Source: a virus. From it: a stretch of DNA of 64,000 bases. Positions 57,277 to 64,000 of the stretch are shown piece after piece (the first letter of the stretch is position 1; each line of letters starts with the position of its first letter). Made by a program: the position numbers and the translations under genes. The stretch lies in the IMG/VR virus record IMGVR_UViG_3300010149_000010. One strand, given 5' to 3'. Below the pieces are notes generated by a model. That model saw only the letters and a program-made list of their open reading frames with translations. It did not search any database and was not told where the DNA came from.

Positions 57277-58059
57277 GTGTACTTTTATGAAAGATACACT
57301 TTGCTTAAAAAATTTCACTACGAAGATGGCCAACTTAAGTACCATCAAAAAATAAGAAAAAAAATATTTGAAGATTTAAATTTCCTGCCCACTAGCTTTT
57401 GGGACCTCAACCCAATAATTAGCGGCAGTTACGCAATCAATCTTCTCTTTAAACCACAATCCTTTTATGATGACGTAGACTTCTACTTTGAATTTCAAGA
57501 CCAATATGATGAAGCAAAAGCTATTCTTAATGGTTTTTCAGAAGAAGCTTCTTCTTTGAATTGTCAAACTTTTACAATTGGAAATAAAAAAATACAGCTT
57601 GTTAGTAAGTTTTTTAACTCTCCGCAAAACATAATATTTGCACATGATTTTAAGAATTCTTCAATAGCAATCACGAAAGACTGGATATATATAGACTCAG
57701 TAATATTTAAATTATACTATGAGTCTTTACTTTCAATTCGTTCTACTCAAATTGACCCTACAATGACAGAAGAAGCTACAGTCAAAAAAATTGCTTTGCT
57801 TTTTAACAGAATTCTAAAATACACAAGCCGCTACGATTTAACTTTGGATGATGAATCAATTCAAATTTTAAAATCTTTGCGAACCTATCTTACTAATACT
57901 CCAATTGAAACTACCAAAAGTATTTTGATAAATACAACCATTTACTACGACGGTAACCATTCTCCTTATCAAAATAATCTTAGAACTATTCTTGAAATAA
58001 AAGAACATTTAGACGCATTTTTGTTCCCCTATGATCAGCTGCCTACTCTTTGTTTTTAA
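57277..58059 (+). CDS. Nucleotidyltransferase, CCA/poly(A) polymerase head-like
   Basis: ISGSY..DDVDFYF, IQLV, HDFKNSSIAI, RILKY motifs. Confidence 0.7.
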   Translation: MYFYERYTLLKKFHYEDGQLKYHQKIRKKIFEDLNFLPTSFWDLNPIISGSYAINLLFKPQSFYDDVDFYFEFQDQYDEAKAILNGFSEEASSLNCQTFTIGNKKIQLVSKFFNSPQNIIFAHDFKNSSIAITKDWIYIDSVIFKLYYESLLSIRSTQIDPTMTEEATVKKIALLFNRILKYTSRYDLTLDDESIQILKSLRTYLTNTPIETTKSILINTTIYYDGNHSPYQNNLRTILEIKEHLDAFLFPYDQLPTLCF

Positions 58060-58287: not shown

Positions 58288-61134
58288 ATGAGATTTTATA
58301 ATTTTTTCACAAATATAAAAAACAGTCCTTGCAACGAAGATAAAAAAGAAATAGCTAGGATTAAACAAATGCTAATTCATGGAGAAGACCAGACATTTTA
58401 TTCTCCTGCTACAGAATTCAATAGAATCAGCCAGGATACTGTTAATTCTATTGAATTCATGAAACAATTAAACCCCACTGTTTTCCAAACCATTGAGAGT
58501 CAAACTTTACCCTTCTTAAGCTTTTTAAATCGAAAGCAAAGTGCTGCACACTATATAAGAAGCAACAATCCGCAAACAGCTTTTCTTAGAGAGCTGCAGG
58601 CTGCTGGAAATGTAAGGGATTTAGACGCTAAGATTTCTGTAATCTATAGTTTATTTACGCACATTACACACCGCTCTTGTTTTATTTCAGATTTTTTCAA
58701 AAGTAATTCTAGAGCTCCTAATAAAAACTTTTTATATTTGTTAAAAGTTTTTGAAAACACCCATAACCTTTCAAATCAATATCATCTCAATTTAGAAGCT
58801 CATCAACACTTTTTAGAAAATGGTCATGTTTGCTGGGTCGACTCTTTGGAGCACTGCCAGTCTCTAAACGATACGGCTTCTTCAACCCCGATAAAAGAAA
58901 TAGCTAAAATTTACATTGCTTTTTTTGAGCATTTATTAAAAAAAAAAAATAATATTGAAGATAACAATCATCATTCGCTAGGCAGCCTGATCTGGAACAC
59001 TCTTTATCAAACTGACAATAATCCCAATTTCCTTCATCTAACTTTTGAAAAGCCTACTGAGGTTTTATTGAATCTTACAGAAAAGCAAATCAAAGACAAA
59101 ATAGCTATGTTTTCGTCAATTGAAATTTTCAATTACCTCCAGATGAACTCACTCGAAAGTACAGATAACGAAAAGGTATACAGCCATTTTTCTAATCAAT
59201 TTTTTACTAAATTTAAAGAAAACAGCGAAGATCCCAATCTTTCAAATGAAAACAATTTGATTAAAATCGATTCCAATCCTATTGACTTGCGATTCACCTC
59301 ATCTAACCTTAATGAAACCACTTGGACCTATTCCAACTTGTTTGCTCGCAATAATCAAGACACAATACAGTGCTTCCCCCCTAAAGGTGATGGAAGAAGT
59401 AATTCTCAATACATACCTCTAGCAGGCACTACTGGTTTGTTAATTGATGACACATCAGGCAAATATGCAAGTCTTGATGTCGCTTCTTCTCTTCAAGCTA
59501 ATCCAAATAAACGTGTTTTTGGTTTAATGCTTAATGCTTTTACCAAAGCCACACTGAAGCCTTCTTTTGAATTCATCACTCTAACTAAAAAACAGGCTTT
59601 AATCAGAAAAGGGTTTTTCATTCCAGTTCTATTAAAATTCCTATCTTGTAATGAAGAAGGGGCAATTGAAACAGCTTACAACTTTTCTTTAATGAATTAT
59701 AGCGACAATCTTAGTTCTATTATTAAAAGAAAGAGAAGCAGAGACCAAATTATAGCCTTCTACAACGCTTACGGCGAAGATGGTTTAAGGTTAATAAACT
59801 ACCAAAAGTTCTTACTTGACCAAAAAAAAAAGATAAAAAAACTAGCCGAATATTCTTTCGCTAACGCTCCTACTTTTAGCAATTATAGTTCTGTTGAAAT
59901 CAACCAACTACTCTCATGCTTGAATTCAATCAAGAACAGTCACTCAAAAAAAGCTAGCCAATCTTTAGTAACTTTTAGCGATAAGCTAACCGCTAAATTA
60001 AATCTCGAACCTTCAATAACTAAAAAGTACAACAAAGTAAGCTCCAATTACAAAAAACTTGTATCGCAAAACACTGAAGAAAGAGGTCTTGTCTCTGATT
60101 TTGCTCGCAACATAGAGCAAGGAAATATGAATATTGAAGGGCTAACCAGAACCATTCAAGAGAATCAAAACAGAATGAAGGAAATGAAAAAACAACTCTC
60201 TGAAAGCACATTACATTTGAAAACTAGCTTTAATAAAAGAGTTGACCTTATTGAAACAATATGCGCAAACAAATCATTATACTTGAAAGTTTTAAAAGAT
60301 TACAATAAAGCTACTGAAATAGCTTTAAGCCAACAAGACTACTCTCAAAACGATTTTTTTAAAAACATTTATGAAACTGAATCTGTAAAAATACTTTCAA
60401 TAGCTAGTTCTAAACAAATCATCGATTGCACAAATTCTGAGAATTACCTTGACGACTTAGCTACAAAAATTGCAGGCAAGAAGGAAAACTTTTTAATTAA
60501 AGAAGTAATTTTCCTTATAGACGCGCCTGTAAAGATAAATGTTGATGGCGGGCGCAAAGGACAAATTGTAGGTGGCCCTTATCTCGTTGCTGTCAAAAAA
60601 GACGAACTTAAAATCAAGCTCGCCTACCCAAGCTCTATTCACGGCTATTCTGACGAATCTAAAAAAATTTACATCCACCCTCATTCAGGTTCATGTCAAG
60701 CTTTAAGTCTTATCAATTATTTTCAACAATTAGAAAGTCATGAACCTGACCATTACTGGTCAAGAGCTTGTCTTGGCGAAGCCTCTTCTTTGATCTATCG
60801 CGCTTTTGAAAAAGAAAATGACCTTAAATTAATCTTAATTTCAGCGTTAACTTGGGTTAAAAACGCAAACAGCGCTGACACTTGGGGTAAAAATTATAAG
60901 TATTTCCCTAAATACTCTCAGATCCAAGAGGAGTTGTCAACTCCTCTCTTAAATCAACAAGAAATCACTGAAGAAGACGTAGGCGATTTCATTGAAGAGA
61001 TGATCGTTTCTGAAGAAGAAAACCTCCAAGAAGAGCCCAACCAACAACAACCACTTCAACAAGAACAAGAAAATGTAACAGAAGCTCATACTGAACCTGT
61101 CTCGCAGGTTTACGTACCGTATACACAAAGGTAA
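58288..61134 (+). CDS. Large protein with coiled coil and C-terminal prokaryotic E2-like domain
   Basis: GPYLVAV..IHPH (60676-60684)..ACLGE (Cys 60769)..NSADTWG pattern; adjacent to JAB, E1 and Ubl genes. Confidence 0.65.
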   Translation: MRFYNFFTNIKNSPCNEDKKEIARIKQMLIHGEDQTFYSPATEFNRISQDTVNSIEFMKQLNPTVFQTIESQTLPFLSFLNRKQSAAHYIRSNNPQTAFLRELQAAGNVRDLDAKISVIYSLFTHITHRSCFISDFFKSNSRAPNKNFLYLLKVFENTHNLSNQYHLNLEAHQHFLENGHVCWVDSLEHCQSLNDTASSTPIKEIAKIYIAFFEHLLKKKNNIEDNNHHSLGSLIWNTLYQTDNNPNFLHLTFEKPTEVLLNLTEKQIKDKIAMFSSIEIFNYLQMNSLESTDNEKVYSHFSNQFFTKFKENSEDPNLSNENNLIKIDSNPIDLRFTSSNLNETTWTYSNLFARNNQDTIQCFPPKGDGRSNSQYIPLAGTTGLLIDDTSGKYASLDVASSLQANPNKRVFGLMLNAFTKATLKPSFEFITLTKKQALIRKGFFIPVLLKFLSCNEEGAIETAYNFSLMNYSDNLSSIIKRKRSRDQIIAFYNAYGEDGLRLINYQKFLLDQKKKIKKLAEYSFANAPTFSNYSSVEINQLLSCLNSIKNSHSKKASQSLVTFSDKLTAKLNLEPSITKKYNKVSSNYKKLVSQNTEERGLVSDFARNIEQGNMNIEGLTRTIQENQNRMKEMKKQLSESTLHLKTSFNKRVDLIETICANKSLYLKVLKDYNKATEIALSQQDYSQNDFFKNIYETESVKILSIASSKQIIDCTNSENYLDDLATKIAGKKENFLIKEVIFLIDAPVKINVDGGRKGQIVGGPYLVAVKKDELKIKLAYPSSIHGYSDESKKIYIHPHSGSCQALSLINYFQQLESHEPDHYWSRACLGEASSLIYRAFEKENDLKLILISALTWVKNANSADTWGKNYKYFPKYSQIQEELSTPLLNQQEITEEDVGDFIEEMIVSEEENLQEEPNQQQPLQQEQENVTEAHTEPVSQVYVPYTQR

Positions 61135-61137
61135 AAA

Positions 61138-62247
61138 ATGAAATCAGTAACTTCCCACAATATATTAAATAACATCCCTATTATTTCTATAACCCACAAA
61201 GGGCTAGAAGCTATTAAAGAGATTGTTAGAATCGCTCCCCAAGAAGCGCAATGGTTTCATACTGTTGAACCAGTTATTTATAAACAATCTCCTAATGAAA
61301 TCCACCTACACCTTTCGGAAAAGATATACATACCTACTCAAAATACTTCTGCTGCTCAAGTCGACACTACTTCGTCAATGATGATGGATTTTTATCGTGA
61401 GCTTAAGAAAGATTATGAAGACCAGGAAACTGTTAACAGTAAATTATCTGCAATGACTTGTTGGTGTCATAGTCACCACAATATGTCACCTAATCCAAGT
61501 AATCAGGATGATTTACAGTTTAACTCCTTCATTACTTTAGCAGAAGACCAGGGTACAAAAGCTTGGCAGGTCATGCTTATTTTTAATAAGAAAGATCAAT
61601 TTTACAGTCGAGTTTACGATCCTACCACAGACACAGTACACGAAGGTGTTCCAATCCGCGTAGTTCGCGACTATGACTTTTCTTATATTCATCAAGCTGC
61701 AAGAACCAAGTTTATCAAACCCAAGCCAAAGATGAAAAAAAAGAATGCTTCAGGATGGAATCTTGGAAGATTTACATCGTCAAAAAGTTTCGAAAGCTCT
61801 TTTTTTGCAAATTCCAAAGATGATAAAGTCCTTTCAAATGATCTTAACGAAGAAATTGTAATCGGAGTTTTAAATGATATTTTCGATAACTACAATGTTT
61901 ACATGCCGCCTACTCAACAATTTACCAAAACCATAAGCCTTCATTCTAGTAACTTACAAAAGCTCCAAGAAGCTCTTTACGCAACTTTTGATGAGAGAGA
62001 AATAGCATTCTTTACCTTTTTCATTACAGGTAAGCAGAAACAAATTCCTAGCTTTTTTTCAGATTCCGCTTTTACCAAAAAGTTCCCTACAATAGATAAA
62101 TGCCTCACCTTTTTTAAAGAGACTTTAAAGAATAATACTTTTTCTATTCAAGACATGTACGAAGCCTTAACATCTACTTTAGAAATAGTAGACCTAGAAA
62201 CCAGAAAACAATGCAAGGACTATATTGACAATGACGGAATCATTTAA
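61138..62247 (+). CDS. JAB/JAMM (MPN+) metallopeptidase
   Basis: EAQW ... WCHSHHNMSPNPSNQDD = E..HxH-x7-S-x2-D. Confidence 0.88.
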   Translation: MKSVTSHNILNNIPIISITHKGLEAIKEIVRIAPQEAQWFHTVEPVIYKQSPNEIHLHLSEKIYIPTQNTSAAQVDTTSSMMMDFYRELKKDYEDQETVNSKLSAMTCWCHSHHNMSPNPSNQDDLQFNSFITLAEDQGTKAWQVMLIFNKKDQFYSRVYDPTTDTVHEGVPIRVVRDYDFSYIHQAARTKFIKPKPKMKKKNASGWNLGRFTSSKSFESSFFANSKDDKVLSNDLNEEIVIGVLNDIFDNYNVYMPPTQQFTKTISLHSSNLQKLQEALYATFDEREIAFFTFFITGKQKQIPSFFSDSAFTKKFPTIDKCLTFFKETLKNNTFSIQDMYEALTSTLEIVDLETRKQCKDYIDNDGII

Positions 62248-62965
62248 CGCAACTAATGTATCTTTTTTACGACATGGTGCTTTTTTTGGACCAGAAGACT
62301 CTCAAGATAAAGTTTTAAATATCATTGGAGTTGGTGCTACTGGCAGTTGGGTTGGACTTTTAGCTGCTAAAATGGGTTGGCAACATTTTCGTGTTTGGGA
62401 CGCTGATATAGTCGAATCTCACAACTTGCCTAATCAAATTTACGATTTAGAACAAGTTGGCTTACCTAAAGTAACCGCTTTTAAACAAAAACTACTTCAG
62501 TTCAATCCAGAGGTAGTAGTCGAAACAAATAATAAGTTCTTTCTTTCTGAACAAGACAAAGACAACCTTGAAGATTATGTTTTTGTTGCAGTCGATTCTC
62601 TTTCAGCAAGAAAAGATATTATCGAAGGGGTCCGCTCTCACCTTCTCCTTGACTACGTCATTGAAACAAGGATGGGTTTCGAACATGCAGAAATCAATAT
62701 TATCGATCCAGCCTACTCTGCACAGATTGACTCTTATTTAAGCACCTTAAAAACAGATGAAGAAGTGACTGAAAGCGCTTGTGATGCACGTATTATTACG
62801 ACTTTAACTTGCATCGTTTCCTCTTCTGTTGTACACACTTTGTGTGGTTTAGCTGCTCAAGACAGGCATGGAGAAACTTACACTCCTCAACCTAAACAAA
62901 TATTCTCTTTACCCTCCAACATCAACACTACTTTATCTACATTTACAATAGGGTCAAAAACATGA
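62231..62965 (+). CDS. ThiF/E1-family ubiquitin-like activating enzyme
   Basis: IIGVGATGS, DADIVESHNLPNQ, GLPKV, AVDSLSAR, ETRMG, candidate catalytic Cys in ESAC; no CxxC zinc pairs. Confidence 0.92.
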   Translation: MTESFNATNVSFLRHGAFFGPEDSQDKVLNIIGVGATGSWVGLLAAKMGWQHFRVWDADIVESHNLPNQIYDLEQVGLPKVTAFKQKLLQFNPEVVVETNNKFFLSEQDKDNLEDYVFVAVDSLSARKDIIEGVRSHLLLDYVIETRMGFEHAEINIIDPAYSAQIDSYLSTLKTDEEVTESACDARIITTLTCIVSSSVVHTLCGLAAQDRHGETYTPQPKQIFSLPSNINTTLSTFTIGSKT

Positions 62966-63147
62966 CAAAACAAAAAATTAATGAAATTATTACAAATCTA
63001 ACTGATGCTCTAACCGATGCTGAGAAATTTGACTCTGGCAATGATGCTGCTGGACGTCGGATTAGAAATGCAGCCCAAACAGCAAAAGCCGATCTGCAAG
63101 AACTTCGAAAGCTAGTTCAAGAAGAAAGAAATTCTCGAAAAGCTTAA
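62962..63147 (+). CDS. Hc1 (histone H1-like) N-terminal domain-like protein
   Basis: DAEKFDSGNDAAGRRIR..LQELRK matches the Hc1 GN.AA..R.R signature. Confidence 0.75.
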   Translation: MTKQKINEIITNLTDALTDAEKFDSGNDAAGRRIRNAAQTAKADLQELRKLVQEERNSRKA

Positions 63148-63197
63148 AATAAACAATCCGTTTTCAACATTAACAAAACATCATCATTCAAAAAACC

Positions 63198-63218
63198 GGG
63201 GGCTTTGCCCCCTTTTTT
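63198..63218 (+). terminator. Intrinsic terminator
   Basis: GGGGGC-TTT-GCCCCC followed by TTTTTT. Confidence 0.7.
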
Positions 63219-63237
63219 ATTTAAAAAGAGAAAAAAA

Positions 63238-63684
63238 ATGACTAACATCACACTTATTGTAATTCCTGGATCTGGCGCTCGCCAAACTTCTTTAAACTCT
63301 AGCGCTACTGTTTCAGATCTTGCCTGCCAAGAGAACCTACACGGCCGCGATATTATCATTGACGGTGTGGGTGTCCCTGCAGATCAATGGGCAACCACAC
63401 CAGTTCCTAACGGAGCAGAAGTCTTTGCTACCGGTAGCGTCAAGGGTAATAATTCATCTTTTACTTTGATCGTTATTCCTGGATCTGGCGCTCGCCAAAT
63501 TTCAATGGCTGGCTCAACTTCAACCCTTACAGTTGCAGCTCTGGTTTGCCAAGAAAACTTACATGGCCGCGATATTATTGTTGATGGCCGTGGTGTACCC
63601 CCTGCTGAGTGGGAAACTACAACCATTTCTTCCGGAAATGAAGTCTTCGCCACTGGTAGCGTTAAGGGCAATAATGGTATCTGA
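63238..63684 (+). CDS. Tandem ubiquitin-like (beta-grasp) precursor, two repeats each ending VKG-N
   Basis: Two ~70-aa repeats TLIVIPGSGARQ..CQENLHGRDII.DG..EVFATGSVKGN; final NNGI cap. Confidence 0.8.
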   Translation: MTNITLIVIPGSGARQTSLNSSATVSDLACQENLHGRDIIIDGVGVPADQWATTPVPNGAEVFATGSVKGNNSSFTLIVIPGSGARQISMAGSTSTLTVAALVCQENLHGRDIIVDGRGVPPAEWETTTISSGNEVFATGSVKGNNGI

Positions 63685-63958
63685 TTTAAAATATTCTATC
63701 TCTTCTGGTGACGGCGCTAAACAAGCGTTTTTAAATCTCCTCGAACAAGAAGCAGCTTGGCAAGACAATTATCAAATTCAAGGCTTTTTTGCCCCTTATA
63801 AAAGGTATAAAATTGTTTCTCTTGATGAGTTTCCTTCTAAAGAAGAGGCGGTTTCTTTTATTAATTCAAATAGACCATTTAAGTTGCGTCCAAAAACACT
63901 AGGTTGCGTTTTTATAAAAAATGACACCAACACTAAATATCTGTTTTTTATTCAATAG
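63674..63958 (+). CDS. Hypothetical protein
   Basis: MVSDLKYS start overlapping the Ubl stop. Confidence 0.5.
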   Translation: MVSDLKYSISSGDGAKQAFLNLLEQEAAWQDNYQIQGFFAPYKRYKIVSLDEFPSKEEAVSFINSNRPFKLRPKTLGCVFIKNDTNTKYLFFIQ

Positions 63959-64000
63959 TATAAGGAAACCTATGGGCTCTTCTACTTTTTATTTATCTAC

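What the first reader, a model, noticed from the sequence alone, without database searches (positions are those of the whole stretch)
63238..63684. Polyubiquitin-like precursor with masked C-terminal glycines
Seen: head-to-tail duplication of a ~70-aa unit, both copies ending FATGSVKG followed by NN (Gly codons at 63445-63447 and 63667-63669), with a final NNGI cap. Known: eukaryotic polyubiquitin and bacterial Bil Ubls need protease trimming to expose the C-terminal Gly. Inference: the JAB peptidase cuts at VKG/N to release two distinct Ubls with a KG rather than GG terminus. A terminator at 63198-63218 lies between E1/Hc1 and this gene, suggesting separate control of Ubl expression.
Basis: partly seen in the sequence, partly recalled or inferred. 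Interest (0 to 1): 0.8.

Follow-up and report, generated by a model that had tools for sequence, protein, structure and literature searches.

The report
Phage poly-ubiquitin-like precursor gene
An uncultured marine phage carries a gene with two head-to-tail ubiquitin-like units next to its own activating enzyme and trimming protease. This copies the eukaryotic polyubiquitin gene layout, except that the conserved tail ends Gly-Asn, not Gly, so the true cut site is open.

Summary
Window 63238-63684 encodes a 148-aa protein of two 71-74-aa units that are 66% identical. Each unit ends FATGSVKGN, and a terminator-like hairpin sits upstream.

A confident model (pLDDT 80.7) shows two beta-grasp domains. 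They are closest to MoaD and ThiS (Z 9.9 and 9.5), and as a pair to ISG15 and linear di-ubiquitin.

More than 200 relatives exist, almost all on uncultured phage contigs. They carry 1-4 units, some fused to a ~95-aa cargo domain. In 11 of 12 loci read, the genes follow a large Cys/His protein, an intact JAMM peptidase, a minimal ThiF-type E1 and Hc1.

The polyubiquitin-style reading is well supported but untested. The "masked glycine" detail is not settled:
- Asn follows Gly in all 232 units counted.
- 23 of 120 close relatives stop exactly at KGN.
- Most distant single-unit relatives stop exactly at KGA or KGN.
- No ORF stops at the Gly.

So the residue after Gly is either an obligatory P1' cap or the real mature terminus.

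I found no paper describing a phage poly-Ubl. This scan has noted the same gene type on other phage DNA. I rate it a new variant of a known kind.

The parts
63238..63684 (+). di-Ubl gene (148 aa plus stop), protein P0001
   Evidence: The identical protein occurs on 12 public contigs. The AF2 model has pLDDT 80.7 and shows two beta-grasp domains.
63238..63450 (+). Ubl unit 1 (residues 1-71), ending FATGSVKGN (63424-63450). Gly70 codon at 63445-63447.
   Evidence: Structural matches of residues 1-71: MoaD Z 9.9 and ThiS Z 9.5.
63451..63672 (+). Ubl unit 2 (residues 72-145), ending FATGSVKGN (63646-63672). Gly144 codon at 63667-63669.
63673..63681 (+). Variable 3-residue tail NGI after the conserved KGN of unit 2
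   Evidence: Tails after KGN vary in length and sequence among relatives.
63198..63219 (+). Terminator-like hairpin (6 G-C pairs, loop TTT) plus T-run, between Hc1 and the Ubl gene
   Evidence: Analogous hairpins of different sequence occur in L009, L012 and L013.
62962..63147 (+). Hc1-type histone-like protein (61 aa), a conserved member of the cassette
   Evidence: Pfam PF07432, E 3e-13, 49.8 bits against a cutoff of 23.5. Present in 10 of 11 viral loci.
62231..62965 (+). Minimal ThiF-type E1 (244 aa): GVGATG at residue 33, Asp122, invariant Cys184 in the ESAC motif
   Evidence: Pfam ThiF, 75.3 bits. Alignment of 10 loci. Residue numbering.
61138..62247 (+). JAMM/JAB metallopeptidase (369 aa): Glu36, His111, His113, Ser121 and Asp124 invariant, plus a C-terminal domain of unknown function
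58288..61134 (+). Large protein (948 aa) with an invariant C-terminal GGPY...HPH(797)...CLGEA(828)...ANSAD.WG(860) module. It is a candidate E2-like or thiol enzyme, but the fold is not verified.
   Evidence: No family or PDB sequence match.
63674..63958 (+). d94, a small cargo-family protein (94 aa). Its ATG overlaps the end of the Ubl gene. It is a paralogue of the domain fused behind Ubl units in relatives.
63972..64000 (+). Start of d101 (101 aa, runs off the window): cargo-family protein with invariant GTI, Cys79 and a C-terminal FFGWAA

Best explanation
The gene encodes a poly-Ubl precursor of a phage-borne ubiquitin-like system.

Shown:
- It has two ThiS/MoaD-like beta-grasp units.
- Each unit carries an identical flexible tail, GSVKGN.
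- Relatives carry 1-4 such units. The units are sometimes followed in frame by a ~95-aa cargo domain, or joined to it through an apparent -1 frameshift site.
- The gene always travels with a catalytically intact JAMM peptidase and a minimal ThiF-type E1 that has an invariant crossover-loop Cys.

Inferred:
- The JAMM peptidase cuts the precursor at the K-G-N junctions, releasing single units and, in relatives, the cargo.
- The E1 adenylates the freed C-terminus and takes it onto Cys184.
- The unit is then passed on, probably to protein targets. The large protein's conserved Cys/His module is a candidate next carrier.
- A multi-copy precursor makes sense for a modifier that is consumed stoichiometrically.

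I put these at roughly even odds. Targets and biological role are unknown.
For: Fold:
- AF2 pLDDT is 80.7, with a beta-beta-alpha-beta-beta-beta pattern twice over.
- Foldseek top hits are ISG15 and linear di-ubiquitin (E 1e-5, prob 1.0).
- Per domain: MoaD 6jbz_B Z 9.9 (rmsd 1.3 A over 68 residues), ThiS 1zud_2 Z 9.5, TtuB 8.4, SAMP1 8.3, ubiquitin 7.8.
- Weak HMM hits to Lambda_tail_I, ThiS and SAMP2. The 3-unit homologue P0007 passes the SAMP2 cutoff (33.5 bits against 27).

Precursor logic:
- The tail motif is invariant in every unit, internal or terminal: 232/232 with KGN.
- Unit number runs from 1 to 4.
- 29 proteins have 3-4 units fused in frame to a cargo domain that is a separate gene in this phage.
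- One protein has one unit plus cargo (P0179), and a divergent 4-unit protein again ends each unit in KGN (P0234).
- In L005 and L012 a start-less cargo lies in the -1 frame behind an A_AAT_TTT heptamer.

Enzymes:
- The order big protein, JAB, E1, Hc1, Ubl(s), PhoH is conserved in 10 of 11 IMG/VR loci, in L020 and in the distant L016.
- The JAMM motif E...HxHx7Sx2D is invariant.
- The E1 nucleotide loop, Asp and Cys184 are invariant.
Against: No biochemical data exist, so cleavage, adenylation and conjugation are all inferred.

No E2 or E3 is recognisable by any HMM library or by PDB sequence profile. The E2-like reading of the large protein rests on motifs only.

The distant single-unit relatives keep the JAB although their ORFs have only one residue after Gly. 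The JAB's main job could therefore be deconjugation and not precursor cutting.

Bacterial Bil and Bub Ubls with 2-3 beta-grasp domains act uncut (PMC11601603, PMC11601596).

The structurally nearest proteins are sulfur carriers, not conjugated modifiers.

One locus (L015) has a unit with no E1 or JAB within 8 kb.
Confidence: 0.6

Rival explanations
1. The mature modifier ends Gly-Asn (Gly-Ala in distant relatives). The Asn is not a cap but the terminal residue that the E1 activates. The JAB cuts after Asn, so no glycine is 'masked'. This keeps the polyubiquitin logic but changes the chemistry the first reader proposed.
For: - Asn follows KG in 232/232 units, whereas what follows Asn is variable in length and sequence.
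- 23 of 120 close relatives stop exactly at KGN.
- Of the distant relatives under 90 aa, 49 stop at KGA, 34 at KGN, 1 at KGG and none at the Gly. In every well-studied Ubl family, the place where conservation ends and where many ORFs stop is the mature terminus (established knowledge).
- Stand-alone cargo proteins start M-G-[AS]-x-x-F, and the fused forms read KGN-G-[AS]-E-S-F. A cut after Asn therefore gives the same N-terminal Gly that Met removal gives.
- The ThiS alignment runs from model residues 3-71 to ThiS 2-66, its last Gly.
- A ThiF-superfamily enzyme, MccB, is known to adenylate a C-terminal Asn (PMC4010828).
Against: - Characterised JAMM peptidases that mature Ubls cut after Gly. 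Examples are BubCD after G229 (PMC11601596), and QbsD and HvJAMM1 (own knowledge).
- Known E1-activated Ubls end in Gly.
- Single-Gly ends such as Ufm1 (VG) and Atg8 (FG), and one-residue caps such as yeast Atg8 Arg and UBI4 Asn, have precedent (own knowledge).
- Tail positions in an AF2 model are not reliable.
- The Met of stand-alone cargo aligns with the Asn, so the register argument is soft.
Confidence: 0.45
2. The protein is not cut between the units. It acts as a single two-domain modifier like ISG15, FAT10 or the multi-domain Bil/Bub Ubls, and only its last tail is used.
For: - The best whole-chain structural matches are ISG15 and di-ubiquitin.
- Bacterial Ubls with 1-3 beta-grasp domains function as one unit (PMC11601603 abstract; PMC11601596).
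- Units 1 and 2 differ (66% identity) and keep positional identity among close relatives: in 58 of 60 cases unit 1 is closer to another protein's unit 1 than to its own unit 2.
Against: - In ISG15 and FAT10 the first domain has lost the terminal motif (own knowledge). Here the internal motif is as invariant as the terminal one.
- Unit number varies from 1 to 4 between close relatives, and single-unit genes sit beside multi-unit ones in the same cassette.
- The cargo domain that is fused in relatives is a free protein here.
Confidence: 0.2
3. The units are sulfur carriers of the ThiS/MoaD/TtuB type. The E1 adenylates the tail, a thiocarboxylate is formed, and the sulfur goes into a phage-specific thio-modification of nucleic acid or a cofactor. 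The JAB only matures the carrier.
For: - The nearest structures are MoaD, ThiS and TtuB (Z 8.4-9.9).
- The best NCBIfam and Pfam hits of the E1 and the Ubl are ThiF and ThiS.
- JAMM trimming of a capped sulfur carrier is known from QbsE/QbsD (own knowledge) and was proposed in Iyer 2006 (PMC1779556).
- Invariant Cys residues occur in the E1, in d101 and in the large protein.
- The cassette lies among nucleotide-metabolism genes.
Against: - No cysteine desulfurase, rhodanese, ThiG/ThiH, MoaE or TtuA-type gene lies within 10 kb.
- All scores are far below the equivalog cutoffs.
- Sulfur carriers recycle, so a 2-4-copy precursor and three to five units per genome are hard to rationalise.
- The tail is KGN/KGA, not GG.
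Confidence: 0.15
4. Microcin-C-like chemistry: the E1 nucleotidylates the C-terminal Asn through a succinimide. This would give a protein-nucleotide adduct and not a conjugate.
For: - The terminal Asn is invariant in this subfamily.
- MccB, a ThiF-superfamily enzyme, acts on terminal Asn (PMC4010828).
- The best PDB sequence hit of the E1 is PaaA (E 6e-8), and MccB is also hit.
Against: - About half of the distant family ends in Ala, which cannot form a succinimide.
- The E1 has no room for the N-terminal peptide-clamp domain of MccB: it is 244 aa, and the nucleotide loop sits at residue 33.
- The PDB hits to UBA5, ThiF, TcdA and MoeB are of similar weak strength.
- The substrate is a folded beta-grasp domain, not a short peptide.
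Confidence: 0.04

Closest known systems
Eukaryotic polyubiquitin genes (yeast UBI4, human UBB/UBC) and ubiquitin-ribosomal protein fusion genes
   Same: - Head-to-tail Ubl units, each complete with its tail motif.
- Variable copy number between relatives.
- Extra residue(s) after the last unit.
- In relatives, Ubl units fused in front of an unrelated small protein that elsewhere is made on its own.
- A dedicated peptidase encoded alongside.
   Different: - No sequence relationship to ubiquitin (9-20% identity in structural alignments). The fold is closer to ThiS/MoaD.
- Units within one protein differ (66% identity), whereas polyubiquitin units are identical.
- 3-5 variable linker residues sit between units.
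- The tail is K-G-N with an invariant Asn, not R-G-G.
- The expected peptidase is a JAMM enzyme, not a USP/UCH.
- The gene is encoded by a phage.
Bacterial Bil (BilABCD) and Bub ubiquitination-like operons
   Same: An Ubl, an E1-type adenylating enzyme and a JAB/JAMM peptidase are encoded together. Ubls with 1-3 beta-grasp domains exist there. The JAB domain of BubCD cuts a pre-protein after a conserved Gly (PMC11601596).
   Different: - Bil and Bub are bacterial operons. Bil is shown, and Bub suggested, to act in anti-phage immunity. This cassette is in the phage itself.
[quoted passage not shown] Here the E1 is a single 244-aa ThiF domain.
- No BilB/BubB-type E2 and no DUF6527 protein are detectable.
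- In Bil/Bub multi-domain Ubls, as I read these papers, only the last domain carries the reactive tail. Here every unit does.
E2-independent Ubl systems: archaeal SAMP/UbaA/HvJAMM1 and Thermus TtuB/TtuC; capped sulfur carrier QbsE with JAMM QbsD
   Same: These also combine a minimal single-domain E1, a ThiS/MoaD-like beta-grasp modifier and a JAMM peptidase. HvJAMM1 cuts linear SAMP1-MoaE fusions, and QbsD trims residues after the Gly-Gly (own knowledge; PMC4443979 abstract for SAMP1/HvJAMM1).
   Different: - Those modifiers are single units ending Gly-Gly.
- All NCBIfam equivalog scores here are far below cutoff.
- No sulfur-transfer partners are nearby.
- The tandem-unit and cargo-fusion architecture is absent there.
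Tandem Ub-like domain proteins of prokaryotic E1/E2/JAB operons (mlr6139 type; Iyer, Burroughs and Aravind 2006, PMC1779556)
   Same: [quoted passage not shown]
   Different: - Those are cellular operons with recognisable E2-like proteins.
- I could not compare sequences, and no relative of this family turned up in 185,579 species genomes apart from one phage-sized contig.
- The KGN/KGA tail and the cargo fusions are not described there.
Phage lambda tail assembly protein I (Lambda_tail_I, PF06805) with the gpK JAB/NlpC peptidase
   Same: A phage-encoded beta-grasp Ubl with a conserved Gly, associated with a JAB peptidase. It gives the best Pfam hit of this protein (23.2 bits, E 1e-4).
   Different: - The score is just under the gathering cutoff of 23.8.
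- The lambda pair sits in the tail module, has no E1, and TAPI is a single unit with a C-terminal domain.
- Here the cassette lies between ThyX/SSB/amidase and PhoH/Whirly/SpoVG/RNR genes and includes an E1.

Membership tests
Ubiquitin-like beta-grasp superfamily (ThiS/MoaD/ubiquitin type modifiers) | Beta-grasp fold | tested here: met
   AF2 pLDDT 80.7. MoaD Z 9.9 with rmsd 1.3 A over 68 residues, ThiS Z 9.5, ubiquitin Z 7.8. Foldseek to ISG15 and di-ubiquitin, prob 1.0.
Ubiquitin-like beta-grasp superfamily (ThiS/MoaD/ubiquitin type modifiers) | Flexible C-terminal tail after the last strand, ending in a conserved Gly that is the activated residue | tested here: inconclusive
   A conserved tail GSVKGN with invariant Gly is present. 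But an invariant Asn (Ala in distant relatives) follows it, and no ORF ends at Gly.
Ubiquitin-like beta-grasp superfamily (ThiS/MoaD/ubiquitin type modifiers) | Functional pairing with an E1/ThiF-type adenylating enzyme | tested here: met
   Met by gene context only. The E1 lies 1-2 genes upstream in 10 of 11 IMG/VR loci, in L016, in L020 and in the P0188 contig. The biochemistry is not testable here.
Pfam ThiS (PF02597) / SAMP2 (PF21965) / Lambda_tail_I (PF06805) | Score at or above the curated gathering cutoff | tested here: not met
   Scores against cutoffs: ThiS 16.2/22.5, SAMP2 15.1/27, Lambda_tail_I 23.2/23.8. NCBIfam: thiS 20.8/37.45. A 3-unit homologue does pass SAMP2 (33.5/27).
Polyubiquitin-type precursor (architecture, not sequence family) | Head-to-tail units, each retaining the full C-terminal motif | tested here: met
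   232/232 units in 120 proteins end [ST][VL]KGN. Both units of the window protein do.
Polyubiquitin-type precursor (architecture, not sequence family) | Copy number varies among relatives; fusion to unrelated cargo occurs | tested here: met
   1, 2, 3 and 4 units occur. 29 proteins have 3-4 units plus a 95-aa cargo, and 1 unit plus cargo occurs in P0179.
Polyubiquitin-type precursor (architecture, not sequence family) | Proteolytic release of single units | not testable with these tools
   An intact JAMM peptidase is encoded in the cassette. No cleavage data exist.
Polyubiquitin-type precursor (architecture, not sequence family) | Homology to ubiquitin itself | tested here: not met
   9-20% identity in structural alignments. 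No sequence hit to ubiquitin in the PDB profile search.
Bil system (BilA-D) | [quoted passage not shown] | tested here: not met
   The E1 is a single 244-aa ThiF domain. The E1 and JAB hits in PADLOC are only to models labelled E1-E2 and JAB, and the Ubl and the large protein hit no related model. The locus is a 159-kb phage contig.
SAMP/UbaA or TtuB/TtuC type E2-independent systems | Gly-Gly terminus; equivalog-level similarity of the E1 and the Ubl | tested here: not met
   The tail is KGN. UbaA model 33.4 bits against a cutoff of 450, SAMP2 14.5 against 70.
MccB/MccA peptide-nucleotide systems | Substrate ends in Asn | tested here: met
   Met if the cut is after Asn, or where the ORF stops at KGN (23 of 120). 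About half of the wider family ends in Ala.
MccB/MccA peptide-nucleotide systems | N-terminal peptide-clamp domain on the adenylating enzyme; short unstructured peptide substrate | tested here: not met
   The E1 nucleotide loop starts at residue 33 of 244. The substrate is a folded beta-grasp domain.
E2/UBC fold (for the large protein's C-terminal module) | UBC fold with an HPN-type loop and a catalytic Cys | tested here: inconclusive
   Invariant HPH, CLGE and ANSxD.WG motifs occur in 10 loci. There are no Pfam, PADLOC, NCBIfam or PDB-profile matches.

The most novel reading that the evidence does not exclude
A lineage of large marine phages carries a complete, self-contained ubiquitin-like modification system. 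Its modifier genes have independently arrived at both eukaryotic precursor layouts: polyubiquitin, and ubiquitin-cargo fusion, the latter in some relatives made through a -1 frameshift. Its modifier is activated at a non-glycine terminus (Gly-Asn or Gly-Ala). That would be a new flavour of Ubl chemistry, used by a virus to tag host or viral proteins during infection.
Probability: 0.25. Interest if true: 0.9.

Novelty: new variant of a known kind. Interest (0 to 1): 0.72.

Why it matters
Ubl conjugation in bacteria has so far been studied as a host defence against phages (Bil, type II CBASS) or as sulfur transfer. A conserved E1-JAMM-Ubl cassette on the phage side, with polyubiquitin-style and Ubl-cargo precursor genes, would show three things:
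- Viruses of bacteria use this modification for their own ends.
- The polyubiquitin gene layout is a convergent solution for supplying a consumed tag.
- An E1 may handle a Gly-Asn or Gly-Ala terminus.

The components are small, soluble-looking proteins. The cleavage site, the activated residue and the acceptor can therefore all be settled with a few co-expression and intact-mass experiments.

Tried and rejected
- **Isolated phages.** blastn (distant mode) of the cassette and tblastn of the Ubl against 50,697 phage records found no match. No cultured relative can be named.
- **Own genome.** No whole genome is held for the window.
- **PHROGs.** Nothing for the Ubl, the JAB, Hc1 or the large protein. 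The E1 hits only families of unknown function.
- **PDB sequence profiles.** The Ubl alignment and the large protein's C-terminal module gave only chance-level rows.
- **Fold of the cargo domain d101.** The model is confident (pLDDT 88.8). Foldseek found nothing below E 0.35, and the full VIA search gave a best Z of 4.3. No known fold can be assigned. An E2-like or MoaE-like reading is neither supported nor excluded.
- **Complex prediction of the di-Ubl with the JAB N-terminal domain.** No verdict: score 0.01 against a mark of 0.32, and controls were not run. This is not evidence either way.
- **Asn-cyclisation self-cleavage (intein-like) and MccB-like succinimide chemistry as the family-wide mechanism.** I set these aside because about half of the distant relatives have Ala at that position.
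- **A +1 frameshift fusing the window's di-Ubl to d94.** I dropped this because d94 has its own ATG at 63674, overlapping the Ubl stop.
- **Literature.** Four full-text searches found no description of a phage-encoded poly-Ubl (one search was for MccB). The library lacks most subscription journals, so this is weak evidence of novelty.
Full report
**What is there**

The finding's coordinates are exact. An ORF runs from the ATG at 63238 to the stop at 63682-63684 and encodes 148 residues. Residues 1-71 and 72-145 are two copies of one unit. They are 66% identical as protein (tblastn E 2e-28) and alignable as DNA. Each copy ends FATGSVKGN. Upstream, at 63198-63212, a six-pair all-G-C hairpin with a TTT loop is followed by a T-run. 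This is a textbook intrinsic-terminator shape.

**Where it comes from**

The window is part of a ~159-kb contig from a marine virome (JGI 3300006752, Ga0098048_1000011). The identical protein is on 12 public contigs. The window also holds a major head protein, a portal and a large terminase. No isolated phage in the 50,697-record collection has anything similar, by DNA or by protein. Among 185,579 species genomes, the unit profile found one locus only. That locus is on a 158-kb contig binned into a 'Bacteriovoracaceae' MAG, and it carries the same cassette. The family is, as far as these collections show, a phage family.

**Fold**

I folded an alignment of 64 two-unit relatives. The model has pLDDT 80.7 and shows the beta-beta-alpha-beta-beta-beta pattern twice.
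- Foldseek's best whole-chain matches are ISG15 and linear di-ubiquitin (E about 1e-5, probability 1.0). TM-scores are low because the two domains are oriented differently.
- Realigned domain by domain, unit 1 matches mycobacterial MoaD at Z 9.9 (rmsd 1.3 A over 68 residues) and ThiS from the ThiS-ThiF complex at Z 9.5. TtuB scores 8.4, SAMP1 8.3 and ubiquitin 7.8.
- HMM hits to Lambda_tail_I, ThiS and SAMP2 are all under their curated cutoffs for this protein. A three-unit relative passes the SAMP2 cutoff.

The units are therefore beta-grasp modifiers of the ThiS/MoaD type. They do not belong to any curated family.

**The family**

The word-indexed search found 184 relatives of similar length and 29 longer ones.
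- Among the 120 listed similar-length proteins, 17 show one unit end, 94 two and 9 three. A few of these are truncated calls. The longer ones have three or four units.
- Over 101 aligned units, 15 positions are invariant, including V68, K69, G70 and N71.
- Every one of 232 unit ends reads [ST][VL]KGN. What follows the Asn varies freely: nothing at all in 23 proteins; one to four assorted residues; a Gly/Arg-rich basic tail (...RPANGPSQTGRPSGGGRGNNPPRGK); a conserved ...DSSVPANFTM tail; or a ~95-aa domain.

That ~95-aa domain is the same family as two small genes that follow the di-Ubl in this phage. These are d94 at 63674-63958, and d101 starting at 63972 and running off the window. All 29 longer proteins are three or four units fused in frame to the domain. 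One further protein is a single unit fused to it, and a divergent four-unit protein again ends each unit in KGN.

In L005 and L012 a d94-like cargo has no start codon. It lies in the -1 frame behind an A_AAT_TTT heptamer inside the ...ANFTM tail. In the window itself, d94 has its own ATG, which overlaps the end of the Ubl gene. This is therefore a family in which Ubl units are made singly, in tandem, and in front of a cargo that can also be made free. That is the polyubiquitin and ubiquitin-fusion logic.

**Neighbours**

In 10 of 11 IMG/VR loci the order is the same:
1. a ~260-aa protein with a weak Gad2 hit;
2. a 730-1120-aa protein;
3. the JAB protein;
4. the E1;
5. Hc1;
6. Ubl units interleaved with d94/d101;
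7. PhoH.

The JAB protein is only weakly matched by Pfam and PADLOC JAB models (E about 0.01). But its Glu36 and its HSHxNMxxxPSxQD motif (HxHx7Sx2D: H111, H113, S121, D124) are invariant in 11 sequences. It should be an active JAMM metallopeptidase.

The E1 is a single 244-aa ThiF domain (75 bits). It has an invariant GxGATG loop, Asp122 and Cys184 in the place of the ThiF/MoeB crossover-loop cysteine, and no CxxC zinc site. Its PDB sequence neighbours are all about equally distant: PaaA, an unnamed ThiF-type protein, TcdA, UBA5, ThiF, MoeB, MccB and Cap2.

The large protein has an invariant C-terminal module, GGPY...HPH...CLGEA...ANSAD.WG. Other first-reader notes call this E2-like. I confirmed the motifs and their conservation. 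The E2 reading stays a lead.

The cargo domain d101 folds confidently (pLDDT 88.8) as a small alpha+beta domain. It has an invariant Gly-Thr-Ile, Cys79 and a C-terminal FFGWAA, and it matches no solved fold.

But the Asn is as conserved as the Gly.

A profile of single units searched against 1.84 billion representatives found 127 proteins, most of them ~70-aa single-unit relatives.
- Of those under 90 aa, 49 end ...KGA, 34 end ...KGN and one ends ...KGG.
- About 17 have short, unrelated tails after the Ala or Asn.
- None ends at the Gly.

One such distant relative (L016...KGA) sits in the same big-JAB-E1-Ubl-PhoH-Whirly-SpoVG arrangement, and its JAB motif is intact.

Two readings fit.

(a) Gly is the mature end. 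One small residue (Ala or Asn) is an obligatory P1' and cap in every member, removed by the JAB. This agrees with what is known of JAMM enzymes that mature Ubls: BubCD cuts after Gly229 (PMC11601596), and QbsD and HvJAMM1 do likewise (own knowledge). It also agrees with one-residue caps such as yeast Atg8 and UBI4, and it explains why the JAB is kept even in single-unit systems.

(b) The mature end is Gly-Ala or Gly-Asn. This is the simpler reading of the conservation pattern, because in other Ubl families conservation and most ORFs end at the mature terminus. It also has the following support:
- It gives the fused cargo the same N-terminal Gly that Met removal gives the free cargo. Free forms start MG[AS]xxF, and fused forms read KGN-G[AS]ESF.
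- It puts the unit boundary in register with the first unit.
- A ThiF-superfamily enzyme that adenylates a terminal Asn is known: MccB (PMC4010828).

I cannot separate the two readings with sequence data and rate them about even. Because Ala alternates with Asn, Asn-specific chemistry (succinimide formation, intein-like self-cleavage, MccB-type phosphoramidate) is unlikely to be the family's common mechanism.

**Mechanism I consider most likely (confidence 0.6 for the whole chain)**

1. The gene product is a precursor.
2. The JAMM peptidase cuts at each K-G-N junction, releasing two different units. The separate 87-aa gene gives a third after its tail is removed.
3. The E1 adenylates the freed carboxylate and takes it onto Cys184.
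4. The unit is passed on, probably to protein amino groups. The large protein's Cys828 module, and perhaps the Cys-bearing d94/d101 proteins, are candidate carriers or acceptors.

The architecture, the conservation and the gene linkage are shown. Every catalytic step is inferred. The main argument for a consumed tag over a recycled sulfur carrier is the multi-copy precursor itself, together with the absence of any sulfur-transfer gene within 10 kb.

The rivals are as follows:
- An uncut ISG15-like two-domain modifier (0.2). The invariance of the internal tail and the variable unit number argue against it.
- A sulfur carrier (0.15). The nearest structures favour it, but copy number and context do not.
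- MccB-like nucleotidylation (0.04).

**The terminator**

The hairpin is real. Hairpins of different sequence but the same shape follow Hc1 in L009, L012 and L013. In six other loci Hc1 and the first Ubl gene are 11-39 nt apart with no hairpin. In the window only about 25 nt lie between the T-run and the ATG, and the sigma-70 scan gives nothing above background. The host's promoter type is unknown. The hairpin more likely ends or attenuates an upstream transcript, with read-through into the Ubl genes, than marks a separately promoted gene. Transcript data would settle it.

**Comparison with what is known**

[quoted passage not shown] This cassette fails the defining features of each family I considered:
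- Bil: E1 architecture, E2, defence-island location.
- SAMP and TtuB systems: Gly-Gly end, equivalog scores.
- MccB systems: peptide clamp, peptide substrate.
- Lambda TAPI: tail module, no E1.

What is new here:
- the location on the phage side;
- a tail motif kept on every unit;
- the Gly-Asn/Gly-Ala ending;
- the cargo fusions, including an apparent frameshift version in relatives.

Four full-text searches found no description of it (one search was for MccB). The library misses most subscription journals. This scan has already noted the same gene type on other phage DNA (e1-5633046, e1-5359156). I rate it a new variant of a known kind, with interest 0.72.

Noticed in passing
L005:8642-8690 and L012:8201-8275: A start-less d94-like cargo ORF lies in the -1 frame behind an A_AAT_TTT slippery heptamer, inside the conserved ...(A/L)NFTM* tail of the last Ubl unit. 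About a dozen of the 120 listed relatives carry this DSSVPANF tail. The window's own d94 instead has an ATG (63674).
   Followed up: partly
window 57277-58059: A 260-aa protein with a weak Pfam Gad2 (PF26128) record and a weak phrog_4400 hit. It is conserved directly upstream of the Ubl cassette in 9 of 10 related loci, so it may belong to the module.
   Followed up: no
L016:1447-3783: In a distant KGA-type cassette, the large Cys/His protein (HPH...CPGE...NDSWG) ends in a WGR domain (PF05406). This is a nucleic-acid-binding module known from poly(ADP-ribose) polymerases.
   Followed up: no
L015:7947-8213: A single Ubl unit ending KGN-stop, with no E1, JAB or large protein within 8 kb on a 47-kb viral contig. 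The next gene looks like a deoxynucleoside kinase. It is an orphan unit or a split cassette.
   Followed up: partly
proteins P0083, P0086, P0091, P0094, P0095, P0098, P0099, P0107-P0120: Many one- and two-unit relatives carry a conserved Gly/Arg-rich basic tail after KGN (...RPANGPSQTGRPSGGGRGNNPPRGK). It resembles RGG-type nucleic-acid-binding tails. This genome's 87-aa Ubl has a shorter version (GSSLRNAPSETSPGSK).
   Followed up: no
protein P0234: A divergent 284-aa protein with four beta-grasp-like units, each ending ITLVKKIKGN. It is an independent or very old poly-Ubl branch that keeps the K-G-N end.
   Followed up: no
window 63238-63684: The Ubl gene is markedly richer in G+C (47%) than the window (39%) and the rest of the cassette (36%). 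Long open frames on the opposite strand (63384-63671, 63144-63359) are probably a by-product of this.
   Followed up: no
window 62962-63147: An Hc1-type histone-like protein (Pfam Hc1, known from chlamydiae) sits between the E1 and the Ubl genes in nearly all related phages. Its role in the cassette is unexplained. It could be a target or a DNA-compaction factor.
   Followed up: no
protein P0162: A d101-family protein (154 aa, with an inserted helical segment) is annotated on a contig of a Candidatus Altiarchaeales MAG. Either the bin contains a phage contig or the family has a wider host range.
   Followed up: no
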